A stretch of DNA of 45,529 nucleotides from Spirogloea muscicola. Lineage: Eukaryota. The number at the start of each line of letters is the position of its first letter. Position 1 is the stretch's first letter. The translations under genes and the position numbers were made by a program. Shown in pieces: positions 28,193-38,326 of the stretch. The notes under the pieces were generated by a model that worked only from the letters and a program-made list of their open reading frames with translations, was not told where the DNA came from and made no database searches. The stretch spans positions 1,439,048-1,484,576 of the forward strand of contig WELB01000004.1 in the NCBI GenBank assembly GCA_009602725.1, written 5' to 3'.

Positions 28193-31100
28193 TCAGGCAT
28201 CCACCATCTCGTCTTGTATCTCTGCGGGTGCGATGAGGCCCGGGATGGCCAGCATGCGCTGCCTCTCAGCCTCTCGCTGGGCTGCTGCCTCCTCGGCATA
28301 CAGGTCCTTGTTGTCCTGCACACGAAGAGTGCGCAGCCAAGGACGACTAAGCATAACTTGGACGCACTCTGGGACCAAGCAAGGACTGCACGAGCATATT
28401 GACTCTCTTGCCCCAACTCTTGCCAGCATGTCTTGGTGAAAGTACAGTAGTAATCGACCCTGCAAAGAAGCAGCTACATGCAAGGACTCATTGATAGACA
28501 AGCTCAAACCCTGCACGGTACCTTGTCCGAGAACTCTTTTGATTGCACGAGGAAGTCGCGCAGATGATTCTTAAAGGCAGCCAGGTCATGCTTGACCTCA
28601 AAGCTGCCCTTGACAAAGGCAGCCACCTCGATGGGAGTCATGTTGGGAAAGGACTCGCTCAGCAACTTGATTGTGTAGTCAAGTACAAAGGCAGCATTGT
28701 TTGCAAAGGCCGTCGGCCCCAACTTAGCAACATCCCATAGTGGCTGCGTGAGAACATCAGAATCCACCTGCCAAACAGGAGTTGTCCCAGGTAAGCATTG
28801 GCAAAGGCAAGTGGAATATCATCCACTGGAACCTGCAAGCCTCTGCATGTTACTGGACTCATCAGACAAACAAGAATAATCCACCTCTTAACAATCTCCT
28901 GGATTATCTCCATAACAATATATACAAAGTCTGGACATACCAGGCAGAAGAGATGCTGCAAGATCAAGGTATGAAGCTTGAAGCCAGGCTTGTGAAAGGA
29001 GTCCGTCAGCACAGCAAAAATTTCCTGCTCAATGGTAAGGAAGTAGGTCTGGTGGAACTGGTTGCAAAACTCCGACGTCTGCAAGCAGGGGTAAAACCAA
29101 AATCCTTGACATGAGCGAAGTACAAAGAGATTGTCTGAGCTGCTCTATATCCATCAAAGTCGGGCTTCTTGATAAAAGCTCCTCTATATGACCTCCAGTA
29201 GCCTACTTAGATTTATGAGAAAAAGGAGGTCCCGATCTGCTCACTGACACTTGGCTGTCCAGATAGACAGACAGACAGACCGACAGACCTACCTGGAAGT
29301 TGGTGAGAATATCCAGCAGCAAGTCCGCTGGGGTATACTGCAAGGTCATTATGTACGGACCACGTACAAGGACCTCAGCAGACAGCTGATAGAAGCCCCT
29401 ACAACTTCTAAGTAGACCTCCAGGTGCATGCCCAAGGTGATCATGGCATGCACCCATTTAGAGTGAGGTCTTATGGAAGCTGGTGGAAGGTGGACTGAGG
29501 ATTTGGGGTCTGAGCTATATCTCGAGATTGAGAATCTACTTGTAACTGACCTGGAATTGGGTAAGGATCTCCAATAGGAGGTTGAGGCCTGTCTCTGCAA
29601 CATTCCTTTCTGTGTGGCGGAATGCCCAGAAGATGCTGTCCATCACAAGCTTCAATTGCTGCTAGGCCATAACAGACAACAACCCGCTCAGTTGTTAGAA
29701 GCAAGTCAATGAGCAGCTATACGCAGCAAGGAGTATAACATCCTTGATAATAAAGGGCGCAATGATCATGTCATAGCGGCATGCCTGCATGCCTTCAAAC
29801 TAAGAGACGCACACACACACCTGGCTGGAAAGAGTGAAAAGTGCACGGAAGCAATGTGAGGCAATGGCTTTCAAGAGCGAGAAGAACTTGAGCCTGTGCT
29901 CAGGGTAATCCTCAAAGTTCGTTGTGATCATCTGGTATAGTGACATCAACAGTGTTAGCCATGTCAAAAGCACTTGAAGATGGAAACCCGCCAAGTACTA
30001 GACAGCAACAGCCAGATGCGTTTAGCTGGGTAAGACGAAGTTTCATGCATGTCACGGGTTGTGCGACTGCAACCTCTTCAAGAAGATCGTGACCCCTGCT
30101 TTAAGCATTAGATGGATGCCTAGAAGGGATAGTTGCTCTACCTTGAGCGTGCACTCAAAACAGGCCTCGAAAATGCGGGGGACCTCATCAAGCATTGCAA
30201 CTTTCAACCTGCAAGTAACAGCACTTCCAGTGAGCCAAGCCTGCCAAATCTCCACACGTCATCTTGCACAGTACCAAAACATCAACAATGGAAATTGGAG
30301 GACGTTGTAAACAAGACCTCATATTGCAAAAGTAGCCCAACACTTCTTGATACTGCATGCATAACAAGCGGTAAGACTGCCCTCACTTGTTGATGATGGT
30401 GGCAAACAGAGAGAGGACTTCGGATTCCCTTGCATCAGGCACATTGCGCGCATAGTCTCCAAGGATGGGGTCCATCATAGCCGGCACAAACTGTTTTGCA
30501 ATGAGCTCGGGGTCCTCGGACTTGTCCACAAACGTCTCAATCAACTTCAAAGTCTCCCGCTTGACAGACCTGCAACAACGCCACGATAGCAAAAAACGAT
30601 GACAATCTGCACTGACGACTTGCAAATTAGGTTTATCAATGCATGCTGCTGCACCATCTTCAGCAAGCAGGACCTGCGTGAGGCAGGATAATGTGCAGGC
30701 TGATGAGGCTATCAGTGCTGGCATTTTGTTACCCAACAAAGGTACCTTGTGCTTCCAAGAGCCCAAAATTGATAGTAGCAATACTAGCATCGACAATATT
30801 TGGCACAAGCCACCTGATGGTCATTACCTGAGAAGCTTGACAAATGACGTCTTCGAAGCGTAAGGCCCTCCTTCAGCAACACTACTTGAGATGAGCTCGC
30901 TGTACATCCTGCACGGAATTGAGCAGCAGGGAGACTTATAAGATTCAATTAGAAACAAGCTCCGCCACAGGCATAATGATTCCAATGACCTGAATATTAC
31001 ACAACTATGTAGGATACTGACAGTCAAGAATGACAGAAACCTGGTAGATCATTCCAGACTTTACGATCATGAAATAACAGCAATAGGGTGGACTATCAAA

Positions 31101-34100
31101 TGACCAAATCGTATGCTGGCATATGCTGTGCTAGCCTACCGGTATATATTAAGCATGTCAAGATAGATGAGTGTGATTTGCGTAAGGAAAGGCTGTCCAA
31201 GTGCACTAGCCACACTTGTGTTGGTCTGCATCCACCAAGCATGCACATAGACACGTGTCAGACATCTGCCCTAGTCATTACGCTGCAATAGTTGCATCAA
31301 CATGATTAATGTTTGACAGTTGAAGGAAAGAGGTGTCCTTAATATGCACCTGCAGAATATTCAAAATTGCTCTGATGGAGTCAGGCAACTTCAGAAACTC
31401 GACATTTTGCTTAGCCTGTTCAATAATCTGCGCCCATCTCTGCAGATCACACACCGAGGACAGAGGCAGGATGTGACTGACGCAGATTGTGCAGTGCATG
31501 GCAGACAATGCCAAGTGGGAGACTGGACACCCATACTTACAGACAGGACATGGGTTTGCTAAGATAAGCTTGGGATCAAGAGATGCCACACCAAGCTTCC
31601 TTGAAAGAGCACGATAGCCTCATGCAGTGCAAAAGTTGAGACTCACCACATTGGGCGGCTGCATCAATTTTTGAAGATACTCGTCGCGCTTCAGCTGATC
31701 AGTTTCTGCTTGGATCATATACCCAACCTGATAGCAGATGACATAATCTTCATGAGAAACTTGACTGGCCTGATTGAGTGACTGAGAGGCAAAAAATTCT
31801 CACCCCACTTGATTCCAAACTGCACATATTAGGAGTGGCCATTCCAAGGTCGTACATATATAGTGCACACATGGCAGCTGCACTTACAGACTCATAGAAG
31901 GTGTGGATCTGATGTGCCTGCAGGTCAAGGATGGTTGTTGACAGCCCTCGTAGTAGCTCTAGTATGAAAGGCTCTGACTCACCCACCTGCACATTAAACC
32001 ACATGATTAGAAGCATGCTAGCAAAGCTGGTATTGCACAACGCGAGCATGGCGACGTTGACTAGCATACATATGCTTGTTAAGAATATCAGGACCAAAAT
32101 ATCATAGAATGCACATCTGACAAGTGAGAAATCCATGGCATACCTGTAGTATCACGAATTTGCGGCGGCACTTCTGTACAATCTTCAAGAAGGTGTCACA
32201 CGCCATGTCCTATATTGCAAGAAGCAGGAGGCCTGTCAGTATAGCTGCCAGCCTAGCGCACACCACAGGCATGCATACATTGCGAGGCAGATTGAATAAG
32301 AGAGAAGTCTAGCTAATGAGAAATGATTGTAACTTTGGGGACCATCAGTACAAGCTCGTAGTCTTAGAAGCATAGATGGCGCGCAGCTACAACAAGCTGC
32401 CCTCAGGGGCCACAGCGAAGAAATACTGCACACACCTGCACCCCAGGGTGAGTCTCGTGCATAAACTCAAACAGCTTGTTTACGACCGTCTTCAAGAACT
32501 TCCAATGAGCTCGCAAGAACCTTGGATACTGTCCAACGACATACCTGCAAAAGCAAACCACAAAGATGAGCATGGCACTATGTGGCAGCAGACTTACATC
32601 TTCACAATGTTCTTTGCTGCAGCATATGTTCCTAGTTGCCACTTGTGGCAGTAAATTAGGCACAAATTAGACAGAGCAATTTTGACATGTACGACAGCAG
32701 GTGAAAGCTCTCCAGCTTCAATTTGCGCCTTTTCAAGGTCCAATGGCCTAGCCTACATGATGTCACTGGCGACCACCGCCTTATGATCCTTTCCCTTGAC
32801 TGCCTTTGATAACGTGAGAAGATCTTGGACCACTTGCACCAAGAATCGGCTCTCCTGCATGACAAGTAGCAAGCACTTGGACGTCTCTCAAGAGCTAGTC
32901 AAGCAGAGGACTCTCTTGTGTGGACAAGACCCGACTCGACCCCAGGTCGCCCCACTTTGCTTCGTACATGATGTTGCTGGCAATGACGGCCTTGTTGTCC
33001 TTCCCTCTTGTGAATTCACAGAGGTTCAACAGGTCGCGAATCACAGTCACCAAAAAACGATTCTCCTGCATTGCGCAAGAAGTCCAGCATTCCATGTGAC
33101 AGCTGCCCAACATCTGCTGACTACTGGGCAGACACGAGCTGCACACCGTGTGGTCTCTGTGCCATGGGCACACCCGTGCAGCCTTTGACACTCGCATCAG
33201 CTTCAGACCCACCCACTGACATCGCAAGCAATACGACATTCATGAACAACGCTTCCTAGGAGTAGACTGTCAAGGTAAAGTAGCCGTGTCGACTGACCTG
33301 ATCCTCAACCATAGAACCAGAGATGGAGCCAATCGCCCAGCACAGAGTGTTCAGGTTATTCCACGACCATTCATCTCCATTCAGCTGCTTGGTCAGCTTC
33401 TTGAGCATCTGCAGAATTCAAGCAGTGTTTGTAATTGAAACTATCAGCAGATTCCTTCTCAATCTCATCGTCACCACCTCTGCAAGAATGACCACCCTAA
33501 CTCATAACAACCTAGAAGGCATCAAAAGTACATCACTGCTTAACTAGCTGGCTTCTACTATGTGGTTGCAAGGCCATTCCATCACACATATGAAGCACTA
33601 TTCGTGCTATGCTGACCTGCTGCTCAGTGTCCTCGTGATCTAAATGTGAGAGGTAGATCAGCGTCTCTCTCATAATCTGCAACATTGCCATGTGAAGACT
33701 GAGCAACTGAGCACTTACGACACACCTCTCTGCTCATGATGCCATCTTGAAGCCTAGGAGAGCAGAGCAATGAGCTACTGAAACAAGCAATTAGTCAATG
33801 AACCAAGCACTCAACAACAAGTCTACCTTGTACTGGACAAGAACGTCATTGTCTTTCATTGTTTCTCGGACTATGTTGCCGTTTTCATCCTCAACTATCA
33901 AAACCTCCTCTGGCTTGGCCATTCTACTGATCATGAGGAGTCGCAGCTTAGACATTGGCCCCGAGTACAGCTGCTTTCGTGGCGACATCTGCCCACCAAT
34001 TCCGTTCGTCATGGGTGCACTGACTACTAAGCCCACCTGCGAGCCCACAAGTACAGTGATACGTGACTTAGTGTTGTTGCTTCCTACTGCCCTTGCAGTA

Positions 34101-37100
34101 TGTGCAGATTTGCTCCTTACGCACAATCTCGATCTCATGACTCAGTAGGAGACATTGTTTGCTACTCTCACTGAGGCAAGTTACTGTAGTGCATAAAGCT
34201 CGCAAAGATGATGGCAAGTTCTAACATGGACTACTTGAGCCGTGGATATCACATCACACAAAGGCTTTGCCCGTATCCATGATGGCTGTGTGCATGCTAA
34301 CACACTGTGGCATCCAATTGGAGCAAGTAAAGACTTGCCTGCAACCCAAGGGGTGTTGGTGGCAATGTTGCCTCCATACTGCACTCTGACTGGAATAGCT
34401 CGCAGACGAGCACATTCCAGTAGTCTAAACACACCTGCACACAGCTATCAAAAATCTCCTTGTGAGATGCCAAAGCAATTCTGCCACGATTCGTTGCTGC
34501 CCAAACACTTGACGAATGGATTAGAGGAGCATATGTACCACCCGTTTGCACAAAGCAGAGGGGTGACTGAATCAAGTATAGCTATGGTGCCAGCAAGGCG
34601 GGCAATAAGCTCGCTGCAGTCTTAACAAAGTGAATTATTTCTAATTAAGTAGAACCACTGAAGAACAAGAGCAACAACAGCATGCCAATCAAAAAGCATA
34701 GCTTACGAGCAAGAGCAAAGGTCAGAGAAGGTGTGAAGAAGACCAAGCAGCAACTTGATATTTCAGCTGGGCGTAGTCAAACCCAGCAATCAGGCTAGAG
34801 TGTAAGATGTACCTTGAAGACCTCAGTGTCCTCCACATACGAGATGTATATGAGGTAGTCAAGGCCGAACAAGAGGGGCTCTGGTGCTGCTTCCAGGACC
34901 TGGATGTGAGCCTGCGGACACATGCAACACACCTCAGAACCAGCTCACAAGCTACTGGAAGCAGGGAGCTCAACGCATTGTGGTGACACTGCAAGGGACT
35001 CATGAAGACGTTTATGTACAGGTGGCCATCCATTACGTTGTATGCTGACGGTTGGAGCAACTCGCAGGACCCAGAGGAATAATTACCAAGTGATGCCTTC
35101 AATATATACAAAAGCAAAGTGATGCAAGAAAATATATCCAGAGCTCACAACATGCATATGAATCTCACCTTGAAAAAGGACGTGAAGAAGAGTGCAAGGT
35201 TCTGAATGAAAGCCTGTGTACAGGGACAGCCAGGCACAACACCAGATATTGGATGTGAATGACAAAGTAGTGAGCTTAGCAAAAGTAAAGGAAATGGGAG
35301 CACTAGTCAGATTCGTAATTAGCTGGCCAAATTACTGCGAGACAAGGAGCTAAGTCCTTGACACGGCAAAGTTGCTGCTTGATAGCCCAATCTTACCTGA
35401 TCCTCATCACTGCCTACGTTATAGGCTTCAGGAATATTTGTAGAGAGCGGCAATATGGCCTGCAATGGCAGCCAAGAAATGCATCAGCATTAGGCATGCC
35501 ATATATTTTCTTGTTATGCATTATCAAAACAGCTTCTCCACCCTTTAAAGACCAGGGTCTACCGTCTGCAACATTTGGATGCATAATAGCTCTCTTGCCT
35601 GGAGCTGCTCCATGAAGAACGTGTATAGCTTGGCAAAGTGTGGATTGTAATAGTCGCCGAAGCTGAGAGCAGCCACCTGCAGCAACCACCCAAAGGCGAG
35701 GCACATGTTGGCAAGTGTTTTTAAGTAGGCATGATGAGTGGAATAGGCAGCACAGTGCCGATAGCAAGTGCCACTATAACACTCATATGCATCACCCACA
35801 GGCCCTACAATCCTTTTGATGGTCGGATGCATGTTTCCTCATTTGGCACTCCATTGCAAAGCATGAGCAAGCCATGTTGTGTGAATCAAAGTCACAAGCC
35901 CAGAGAAAGACGTGATTGTTGACTCCGAAGTTGACTCTCTGCGCCCCACGAAGTGACACGCTTGACACGATTTGATGCCATGGCTAATACAGAAAGAGAT
36001 CACGATCATGTATTCACCTCTGTGAGGCACTGCAATGCAAGATTTCTGTACGCCGGTATGGGGAAGAGTTTTAACAAACTCTCCAACTGCAGTGGACACG
36101 AGGCATATATGGCAGCAGATCAGCATTTGTGCCCTGTCATCTTGCTCCATGATCCTCCGCAAGCACGAGTACTTCTTACTGGCTACTAACACCCAGGACA
36201 AGTAATCAGCAACACTGTGCATCTCAAACTAGAGATTTATTGACAGCTCCTGCAGATGGGATATTGACATGAGCTCCAAGGGGGGGAGACTGACCAGAGT
36301 GGACTCAAAGATGTAGCCCAATGGTATCCAAGAGAGGAAGGCATGCAGCGTGGAGAGCGTCGCCCTGGTCAGTGAGGGCCGCTGCGAGGCAGCGAGAACA
36401 TACTGGCAGAGCTCGTGGACCAGCTGGAACTCGCTGCACCAGCAGTGCACACACAAAAGCCACATTGCTGTCACTGCCAGGAAGAGTCTGGAGCCTGAAG
36501 CAGAGGCCCATTCACCGAAGAGAACAGCGGCACATATGTGCACATGAGTGGCAGCCAGCTTACCTGTTGAGCGATTGTTTCAAGTCCTTGATTTTCTGCT
36601 GAGTCATCTCTCCGCGCGAGAAGTCGAAGACCTCCTCACTCAGGAGCTGTAAGTGGATAGATGATGATTGTGAGCTCGATCCAGCTCTCAAGCTATGCAG
36701 AAAATGGAAGGCATCCATAGATTGACTGGACACATGATTACGTTGCATGGATGTCAGCTTCTCAGGCATATGCAGCCACCTTCGTGAAGCAAAAGTACCT
36801 TAAGAATGACCATGCAATTTTCACACAGGGTTTCACTGCTCCTTGCAGCTGTCACAAGGTCTGGTATGAAGTTTGGCCAACGTTGCGGCCACTCATGCTT
36901 GAGGACCTGCCCCAACATGGACATATACAGTCATCAGACACAGCAAGCTCAGAGGGCCAGAGCCAAATAACGTCTGACAATGTCAAGAAACTGAAGTCAC
37001 AGAGGTGGCTGCATGACCCGATTGCCCAGGACATAGCCACTGGGACTACGAATCCTTCAAGCCGCACTCTAAGCAGTACTAGCCAGGTTGATGCAGGACA

Positions 37101-38326
37101 CAAAAACAACCAGTGAGATGGTGGGGCAATCTTTTCATGCCTGGACTAGAATGATGTTGAGCTTATTTAGGTACAATCGCTCAGAGCGGAATGTCGTCTC
37201 ATCTCGTGATATCTGCAGGAAAACGGAAATGATGGACAGCTCCTTGACTCAGGGAGTTGTTATCGACGACAGACAACCCTGCATGCATGCTGAACACGGC
37301 ACGACCTTGGCAGTGCAGCTACCTGGTCAAGGCATAATTTGATAGAGGACTTACTGCTAGAGAAAAGCCCTACCTGAACAATCAAATCAGAGATGTAGTT
37401 CTTGATTCCGTCCCTCTGCTCCACAGGAAGGGCGTTCCACCGATACTTGATGACACCCTCTAAGACCTGGAAAGGGCCAGACAAGGAAGAGCATGCTGCA
37501 ACATTAATACAAAGGCCACGAAGACACCAATACATGAAGCCTCAGGATCTTGTCGTTCACTATGAAGGCAACTTGGGTCTCACTTCTTCTGACGACCATG
37601 TGCAAGTGGGCATTGCTACTTGTCCAAGACGAGAAAAGTAGCTGAGTTTCAGGGAAAGTACTTCAATGCACGTCCCCTTGCCTAGCCAAGCGTCTGCACA
37701 AAACCTTTGCTAAGGATAATACAGCAGTTGAGCAGACTAACTACTGCTGCAGATGCTAGCCTTCGTGACACCCTAGAGGACTTCGCATCATGGGAGCTCA
37801 CCTGTAGGGCGAAGAACTTGGAGTTCTGGTTGCGGCTGGTCTGGAGGACCGACACGACGCGCGTCCAGGTCTCGGGATGCTCTTGGAGGGCTCTCAGGAC
37901 GCGCTCCGCAGCAGCCCGCTGCAGGCATCGAGGAGGAGCCCGCGGATGGCATCGATGACACACCAGCTCAAACGGTACCAAGCAGGCTGAGTGCCGACCG
38001 CGCGACGACCGCGAGACGGACGCACGTACAGTACAGCGCCACTAGCTGCTATGGTCTTTGAGCTTCGGGCCAGAAGCTCCAACTCGTCATCTTCTGTGTC
38101 AAGGCCTACCATGGACGAGCAGGCTTGGCCATGAGAGCCTCTAAGCCCCATTTGAGCTTCCGCAGGAGCTTCTGGTGCGGAAGGAGTCGTTGGCAACTCA
38201 CTGTACCTTAGTGGCTATTTAGTGGCTTACCTCGTCTTTGGATCCGGTGCCGTAGAAGGCGTCGATGGTGGAGTCGAGGAGGGCGACGTCGAGCGGCTGC
38301 GAGAAGTCGAGGAGCCGCTCCGCCAT
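28193..38326 (-). CDS. XPO1: Exportin-1 (CRM1), about 31-exon gene span
   Basis: Starts [32 protein letters not shown]. Exons include [42 protein letters not shown], acidic loop [137 protein letters not shown]. Ends [17 protein letters not shown]. Confidence 0.97.
29262..29288 (+). repeat. (GACA)n microsatellite in an XPO1 intron
   Basis: gatagacagacagacagaccgacagac, directly after the donor of the candidate 45-nt exon. Confidence 0.8.
29293..29337 (-). other. Candidate 45-nt alternative XPO1 exon resembling the 3' end of the preceding exon
   Basis: ttgcag|TATACC...AACTTCCAG|gtaggt; [15 protein letters not shown] versus upstream exon end [13 protein letters not shown] (ends at 29551). Confidence 0.45.
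32757..32854 (-). CDS. XPO1: XPO1 NES-groove exon, duplicated alternative copy B (98 nt), candidate mutually exclusive exon
   Basis: tgcag|GAGAGC...GACATCAT|gtaggc; [32 protein letters not shown](M). Same length and phases as copy A, no stops or indels. Confidence 0.8.
32968..33065 (-). CDS. XPO1: XPO1 NES-groove exon, canonical copy A (98 nt)
   Basis: tgcag|GAGAAT...AACATCAT|gtacga; [32 protein letters not shown](M); phase 0 to phase 2. Confidence 0.95.

What the first reader, a model, noticed from the sequence alone, without database searches (positions are those of the whole stretch)
32757..33065. Tandem duplicated, apparently mutually exclusive exons swap the NES-binding groove of XPO1/CRM1, including the leptomycin B cysteine
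Seen: two homologous exons, each exactly 98 nt with tgcag acceptors and GT donors and the same phases (0 in, 2 out), separated by a 113-nt intron. [69 protein letters not shown] has no stops or indels and several synonymous differences, which suggests selection. Because 98 is not a multiple of 3, including both or skipping both shifts the frame, so only one can be used. Established: this segment (human about E513-M545, HEAT 11) forms one wall of the hydrophobic NES cleft. Its Cys (human C528) is the covalent target of leptomycin B and SINE inhibitors, and Cys-to-Ser there confers resistance. Copy B has that Cys-to-Ser change plus E-to-K, R-to-Q, I-to-V, N-to-H and N-to-D changes. Inference: one gene may make two exportins, a canonical one and an inhibitor- or redox-insensitive one with altered cargo preference. 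I do not recall such an exon pair being described for XPO1, but could not search the literature.
Basis: partly seen in the sequence, partly recalled or inferred. Interest (0 to 1): 0.92.

Follow-up and report, generated by a model that had tools for sequence, protein, structure and literature searches.

The report
Swappable cargo-groove exon in algal exportin
In this green alga the gene for the main nuclear export receptor carries two versions of the exon that builds its cargo-binding groove; the second version is shared with a distantly related alga and lacks the cysteine that export-blocking toxins attack, so the gene likely makes a second receptor, predicted to resist them, although no transcript using that exon was seen.

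Summary
Observation confirmed. The XPO1/CRM1 gene (minus strand, 38326-28193, 1074 aa) holds two 98-nt, same-phase exons, A (33065-32968) and B (32854-32757), for human residues 513-545; using both or neither gives a premature stop. B is not debris: synonymous sites are saturated against A while the frame is open (pS 0.98, pN 0.27); B is identical in three EukProt 'SM' gene models; and a Mesotaenium model holds an orthologous B, 21 of 25 residues identical, sharing Q522, S528 and K529, states seen in 0 of 164 ordinary CRM1 segments. The two B copies group 100/99; grouping by species is rejected. So the duplication predates two zygnematophyte orders. An unnamed chlorophyte-type ORF (P0183) shows a separate tandem duplication, with Cys528 to Val. 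Best reading: a conserved mutually exclusive exon giving a Cys-less groove with moved rim charges, probably a minor or conditional isoform. Not shown: any spliced transcript with B, or its function. Main rival: a poison exon for nonsense-mediated decay. Not found in ten literature searches.

The parts
28193..38326 (-). XPO1/CRM1 (exportin-1) gene, 32 coding exons with either A or B, 1074 aa
   Evidence: Model built by coordinates; identical to EukProt protein P0005 at 1072 of 1072 aligned residues; all six CRM1 Pfam families on P0005 above cut-off; spliced contigs of run X1 join across introns of the model (15 joints shown, 15 not shown)
33298..33408 (-). Upstream exon, 111 nt, phase 0 donor shared by A and B
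32968..33065 (-). Exon A, 98 nt: canonical NES-groove segment (human 513-545; helix 11A, loop, start of 11B)
   Evidence: the bin holding it is covered by contigs of run X1
33018..33020 (-). Cys codon equivalent to human Cys528
   Evidence: codon 16 of exon A; numbering from 3GB8 alignment
32855..32967 (-). 113-nt intron between A and B, the shortest of the gene; one branch-point-like motif with its A about 68 nt from the donor of exon A
   Evidence: branch point is a motif match only
32757..32854 (-). Exon B, 98 nt: duplicated variant exon, 13 residue changes, among them R522Q, C528S, E529K
32807..32809 (-). Ser codon at the Cys528 position in exon B
   Evidence: codon 16 of exon B
32436..32544 (-). 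Downstream exon, 109 nt, starts in phase 2; holds the premature stop if both or neither exon is used

Best explanation
Exon B is an old tandem copy of the exon for one wall of the XPO1 cargo groove, kept by selection on its protein sequence, and is likely spliced in place of exon A to give a second exportin that is predicted to lack the reactive Cys528 and to carry its rim charges in other places. Shown: anatomy, frame constraint, selection, orthology with Mesotaenium. Inferred: (1) splicing picks A or B, and transcripts with both or neither are likely removed by nonsense-mediated decay; the short A-B intron may help; (2) A is the usual form and B a minor or conditional one; (3) the B groove still binds leucine-rich export signals, because V518, L525, K534, K537, A538, A541, I544 and M545 are kept and I521 changes only to Val; (4) Ser528 removes the thiol attacked by leptomycin-type bacterial products and other electrophiles, while R522Q and E529K shift cargo preference. 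I favour a back-up exportin that keeps working under electrophile or toxin stress.
For: Same length, phase and normal splice-site scores. pS 0.98 against pN 0.27, no stop, no indel; 0 of 20000 random-drift copies reached 19 of 32 identical residues. B identical in P0003, P0004, P0005, while the neighbouring intron-derived linker differs by frame and the 45-nt duplicate elsewhere in the gene differs at 2 of 15 residues. Mesotaenium model P0007: 21 of 25 identical to B, 14 of 25 to A. Tree of 25 columns: B+B 100/99 on a long stem (0.86) with a short crown (0 and 0.28), species-wise groups rejected, p-AU 0.002 and 0.014: a burst of change, then conservation. P0183 has two tandem copies of the equivalent exon, one with Val528. 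I521, L525 and A541 are groove residues and I521A has the mildest effect (PMC7503480 passages); yeast K533 and E540 (human 522 and 529 by my offset of 11) contact export signals in predicted models (PMC13041915 passages); human cells live with endogenous C528S; B's best PDB match is the T539S yeast mutant 4HB3, described as binding leptomycin B weakly.
Against: No transcript or transcript-derived protein with B in place of A was found: 0 of 116 other full-length hits listed (P0006 and P0007 aside, which hold two copies), 0 of 60 shorter proteins, 0 of 138 segments from the representatives search. In P0007 only 25 residues of B are visible; the model then shows Thr where Ala538 is invariant (164 of 164) and leaves the exon early, so the 3' end of the Mesotaenium copy may be damaged or mis-modelled. 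No pairing element that would enforce exclusion beat shuffles. Which trait is selected (Cys loss or cargo change) is not resolved; leptomycin B can still sit non-covalently in a Cys-less groove (PMC4588050 passage).
Confidence: 0.6

Rival explanations
1. B is a real alternative coding exon, but its purpose is a different cargo set (or weak export-signal binding for a cargo-independent or dominant-negative role); the loss of Cys528 is incidental.
For: 13 changes, not one; R522Q and E529K are absent from 164 ordinary segments and fall on residues predicted to touch the export signal; a lone Cys change would be enough for resistance, as in 21 of 164 single-copy segments.
Against: The separate duplicate in P0183 changes little besides Cys528 (Val) and position 530 within this segment, and 5 of 207 segments with R522 have Val or Thr at 528 with E529 kept, which points to the cysteine as the repeated target.
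Confidence: 0.17
2. B is a poison exon: including it after A shifts the frame and sends the message to nonsense-mediated decay, tuning XPO1 level.
For: A+B gives a stop with 13 exons downstream; Chlamydomonas XPO1 has a cell-cycle-regulated exon-skipping event that introduces a premature stop, in its N-terminal domain (PMC7534427 passages); no B-only protein was found.
Against: After A, exon B would be read in another frame, so its residues would be free to drift; instead they are kept in A's frame with saturated synonymous sites and match Mesotaenium at 21 of 25. I had no Mesotaenium DNA, so could not test whether that conservation is at the nucleotide level.
Confidence: 0.12
3. B was once functional but is now a silent relic.
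For: No B transcript seen; the three gene copies are close (5-7 true residue differences in about 1020), so identity of 33 codons is weak evidence alone; the Mesotaenium model is irregular at the 3' end of B.
Against: Intact splice sites and frame; if neutral, 3.7-6 residue changes would be expected for total tree lengths of 0.05-0.08 (P of none 0.024-0.003, lengths assumed, not measured); the adjacent intron already shows a frame difference between copies.
Confidence: 0.07
4. Both exons are used together in frame through a later donor inside the intron, as the public gene models have it, adding an extra helical pair.
For: P0003, P0004, P0005 and P0007 are annotated that way; AlphaFold models both copies as helix-turn-helix.
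Against: The donor needed scores -0.6, below 28 of 29 true donors; the linker differs in frame and length among the models; pLDDT falls to 47-68 over residues 531-620 against 82-97 over residues 621-800.
Confidence: 0.03
5. Assembly artefact (collapsed alleles or paralogues).
For: The lineage has three close gene copies.
Against: The copies are only 57 of 98 nt alike, occur at three scaffolds and in a second species.
Confidence: 0.01

Closest known systems
XPO1/CRM1 (exportin-1), NES groove of HEAT 11-12, Cys528
   Same: Full domain set, fold matches human and yeast CRM1, exon A is the canonical segment.
   Different: Known CRM1 genes have one groove sequence per gene; here two versions sit in one gene. 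No splice variant of the groove was found in my searches.
Naturally or artificially Cys-less CRM1: S. cerevisiae Crm1 (Thr539), human C528S/C528T, yeast T539S (PDB 4HB3)
   Same: A hydroxyl residue replaces the reactive Cys; D543 is shared with yeast-type segments.
   Different: There the change is fixed in the only copy; here it is optional and comes with R522Q and E529K.
Homologous mutually exclusive exons from tandem exon duplication (ATE1 7a/7b, search listing and abstract start only; PKM, FGFR2 IIIb/IIIc, tropomyosin, Dscam recalled)
   Same: Equal length, same phase, adjacent, homologous, non-multiple of three, swapping a ligand-binding surface.
   Different: In a streptophyte alga and in a housekeeping karyopherin; exclusive splicing not yet shown by reads; no pairing element detected.
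Chlamydomonas XPO1 (Cre03.g146487) exon-skipping event with premature stop (PMC7534427)
   Same: Alternative splicing of a green-algal XPO1 with a frame-breaking outcome.
   Different: It disrupts the N-terminal domain and is not described as a duplicated groove exon.

Membership tests
XPO1/CRM1 | IBN_N, Xpo1, CRM1 repeats 1-3 and CRM1_C domains in order | tested here: met
   on P0005, all six above cut-off; P0005 equals the window model at 1072 of 1072 residues
XPO1/CRM1 | HEAT-repeat fold matching solved CRM1 | tested here: met
   (E 2e-65, TM about 0.7-0.8; model of the annotated A+B form)
XPO1/CRM1 | RanGTP-dependent NES binding by the B isoform | not testable with these tools
   pocket residues kept; needs binding assay
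Homologous mutually exclusive exons | Adjacent exons of like length, same phase, sequence homology, usable splice sites | tested here: met
Homologous mutually exclusive exons | Each exon alone keeps the frame; both or neither break it | tested here: met
Homologous mutually exclusive exons | Conservation of both exons across species | tested here: met
   P0007, 25 visible residues only
Homologous mutually exclusive exons | Transcripts exist with each exon, and not with both | tested here: inconclusive
   one run of contigs only; its joint table was cut before this region; see Tried and rejected
Homologous mutually exclusive exons | A mechanism of exclusion (steric, competing RNA pairing, or decay) | tested here: inconclusive
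   113-nt intron with branch motif about 68 nt from the donor; duplex energies not beyond shuffles (9, 46, 14, 59 of 100); frameshift gives a decay-type stop
Poison exon (AS-NMD) | Inclusion creates a premature stop upstream of exon junctions | tested here: met
Poison exon (AS-NMD) | No protein-level constraint in the productive frame | tested here: not met

The most novel reading that the evidence does not exclude
Probability: 0.3. Interest if true: 0.88.

Novelty: new variant of a known kind. Interest (0 to 1): 0.74.

Why it matters
The XPO1 groove is treated as one invariant surface that reads hundreds of export signals and is the target of leptomycin B and selinexor. [quoted passage not shown] It also means public gene models of these algae are wrong at this place, and that leptomycin B may not be a clean test of XPO1 export in them.

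Tried and rejected
Expression: the look-up of sequencing runs listed no RNA holder on record, one run X1 with a small share. Laid on the gene, X1 gave spliced contigs; the bin holding exon B had depth 0 and the bin holding exon A 11.7, but the joint table was cut before this region, contigs drop rare variants, and one run is one condition, so the blank at B is no evidence either way. A closer look at this region could not be obtained, so isoform use stays open. No whole genome is held. Cluster membership of P0003-5 could not be looked up. Metagenome scan with the B profile: 306 pattern matches, none confirmed. Metagenome scan with an A profile: 437 confirmed, best 80 kept; 0 of 80 had a second copy within the fetched flanks, but 54 have no intron on either side there (intronless or cDNA) and many are near-duplicates; none is known to be a zygnematophyte. 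Genomic context of P0183: none found in genome contigs or viral contigs; viral-contig scan with another exon gave one weak irrelevant hit. Docking/selector pairing: 11 short inverted repeats, the best 17 nt at 82% between exon B and the upstream intron, not beyond shuffles in duplex tests; not accepted. Steric exclusion: not accepted for this gene, the distance (about 68 nt) is above the roughly 50 nt limit that I recall. P0006's two copies are identical and part of a long internal repeat, taken as a likely model or assembly artefact. No complex prediction was run: no export-signal partner was at hand. Earlier findings: three look-ups, nothing. Literature: ten searches; none listed an XPO1 duplicated or mutually exclusive groove exon; subscription journals, supplements and exon databases were not seen and could hold one.

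Full report
1. Observation. The window's minus strand carries an intron-rich XPO1/CRM1 gene from 38326 to 28193. A model built from coordinates has 32 coding exons and 1074 residues. Exon A (33065-32968) and exon B (32854-32757) are both 98 nt, both follow TGCAG, both end before GT, enter in phase 0 and leave in phase 2, and lie 113 nt apart. Either alone gives the full open frame; both give a stop at codon 596 and neither at codon 539, in each case in the next exon, with 13 exons downstream. Exon A aligns to human CRM1 513-544, so its 16th codon is Cys528; B has Ser there. Of 32 codons, 8 are identical, 11 differ silently and 13 change the residue; 57 of 98 nt match. Of 31 introns scanned against the protein, only this one holds a strong copy (score 107; the other 30 score 26-41). 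Splice-site scores from this gene's own 29 other sites place A and B within the normal range (donors above 6 and 9 of 29, acceptors above 17 and 12 of 29).

2. Organism and copies. A search with B found three EukProt proteins, P0003-P0005, with 'SM' identifiers on three scaffolds; P0005 equals the window model at 1072 of 1072 aligned residues. I recall that prefix as Spirogloea muscicola (Zygnematophyceae, Spirogloeales; lineage) and that this species has a recent genome triplication; neither point comes from a call. All three models contain A and B, each identical across the three, joined by an intron-derived linker that differs in frame in P0004. The donor needed for that in-frame join scores -0.6, below 28 of 29 true donors, and AlphaFold gives 47-68 pLDDT over the doubled stretch against 82-97 just after it. 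I read the public A+B models as gene-finder artefacts that happen to expose exon B.

3. Selection. Between A and B, 21.2 of 21.5 synonymous sites differ (pS 0.98, saturated) but only 19.8 of 74.5 non-synonymous ones (pN 0.27), with no stop or indel; none of 20000 copies mutated at random to the same nucleotide distance kept 19 of 32 residues (best 16). That control puts all change on one copy and so overstates the case, but saturation shows a long separate history during which B did not decay. Recent constraint is suggested, more weakly: no residue change in B among three copies, against 2 of 15 in another duplicated element of the gene; the chance of none under neutrality is 0.11 to 0.0003 over assumed tree lengths of 0.03-0.11. 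I had no DNA for the other two copies.

4. Age. In a search with the A+B region (3275 hits, best 120 listed) the next two-copy hit of this kind was P0007 (jgi Mesen1 ME000107S10808; recalled as Mesotaenium endlicherianum, placed in Serritaeniales, a different order, by passages of PMC13443282). Its model has a canonical A followed by 25 residues that match B at 21 and A at 14; the whole proteins differ at 177 of 939 aligned residues. Shared states include Q522, S528 and K529, each absent from 164 ordinary segments, a set that was itself pulled by likeness to B or A+B. In a tree of 29 rows and only 25 columns the two B copies group 100/99 on a stem of 0.86 with tips of 0 and 0.28; holding B with A of the same species is rejected (p-AU 0.002 and 0.014). 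This is the pattern of one duplication before the two orders split, a burst of change, and then conservation. Against: the last seven residues of the Mesotaenium B are not visible, the model shows Thr at the otherwise invariant Ala538, and that model lacks other exons too.

5. Distribution. Of 437 confirmed metagenome loci the best 80 were kept; none has a second copy. Eleven loci, which look like land plants by sequence (my inference; many near-duplicates), have this same 98-nt exon with both flanking introns and no copy in them; eleven chlorophyte-like loci have the same downstream boundary on a longer exon; 54 have no intron on either side. So the exon is old, and the duplicate is absent from the land-plant-like loci seen. 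The representatives search (324 hits, best 150 listed) gave no segment closer to B than to A (0 of 138), but its top hit, unnamed P0183, is a read-through frame with two tandem copies of the longer chlorophyte-type exon: the first has Val at 528, the second Cys, with an 18-residue linker that fits a 55-nt intron if the boundaries match those of L055 (inferred, no DNA). Its copies do not group with B, so this is a separate duplication. Four more short frames with R522 have Val or Thr at 528 (5 of 207 segments in all); their context is unknown, and they may be sole exons.

6. Expression. Not shown for B. Contigs of one run (X1) are spliced across introns of the model and cover the bin of exon A. 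What that run does not cover is told under Tried and rejected and is no evidence.

7. How it most likely works. [quoted passage not shown] B keeps V518, L525, K534, K537, A538, A541, I544 and M545 and changes I521 to Val; I521, L525 and A541 are named groove residues and I521A is among the mildest mutants (passages of PMC7503480). B changes residues 514, 522 and 529, whose yeast equivalents (K525, K533, E540; offset 11 from K579 = K568) are listed as signal-contacting in predicted models (passages of PMC13041915). Leptomycin B, anguinomycin (Streptomyces), ratjadone (Sorangium) and 15d-PGJ2 bind Cys528 covalently (passages of PMC5487384), as an itaconate electrophile binds XPO1 (passages of PMC10374058); C528S and C528T block conjugation and an endogenous C528S cell line exists (passages of 10.1101/2024.10.07.617049; PMC11330842). 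I therefore infer a working groove that is not closed by covalent inhibitors and reads flanking charges differently, made as a minor or conditional isoform, with exclusion enforced mainly by decay of frame-shifted messages. Confidence 0.6 for the whole; about 0.77 that B is a coding alternative exon, whatever it is for. The poison-exon rival has a precedent in Chlamydomonas XPO1 (passages of PMC7534427) but does not explain residue conservation in A's frame.

8. Novelty. The gene is an ordinary XPO1 and homologous mutually exclusive exons are a known kind. An exon pair that swaps the XPO1 groove did not appear in ten full-text searches; of most listed papers I saw only titles and the start of abstracts, of eleven I saw passages, of none the whole text or supplements. 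Three look-ups among earlier scan findings gave nothing. Verdict: real, conserved, a new variant of a known kind; interest 0.74, held back by the lack of a B transcript and of any functional test.

Noticed in passing
window 29293-29337 (minus strand): A 45-nt in-frame element with TGCAG acceptor and a strong donor that resembles the 3' end of the preceding exon (29658-29551). All three EukProt models include it; it differs at 2 of 15 residues among them; an X1 contig skips it (joint 29078-29551); its likeness is only marginal against shuffles (1 of 500 reach it) and no better than intron background at protein level; pLDDT below 50. Probably a decaying partial duplicate or minor cassette exon.
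   Followed up: partly
P0183, P0218, P0211, P0213, P0271 (unnamed proteins): Green-lineage-type groove segments with Val or Thr at 528; P0183 has variant and canonical copies in tandem, P0218 also has D543. Possible independent alternative exons; no genomic context found.
   Followed up: partly
L062:2707-2760, L071:2707-2760, L070:274-451: Partial copies of the 5' part of the corresponding exon lie just upstream of it in three chlorophyte-like loci, hinting that this region duplicates often.
   Followed up: no
window 37140, 35598, 34338 (minus strand donors): Three introns of the model start with GC instead of GT; the public models go wrong at or near these places.
   Followed up: no
window 32789-32805 and 33264-33280: 17-nt, 82% complementary inverted repeat between exon B and the start of the upstream intron; not beyond chance in duplex shuffles, but worth checking for conservation in Mesotaenium.
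   Followed up: partly
P0010: A lettuce XPO1 model has an 11-residue insertion right at the downstream boundary of this exon; unrelated to B, probably a gene-model extension.
   Followed up: no
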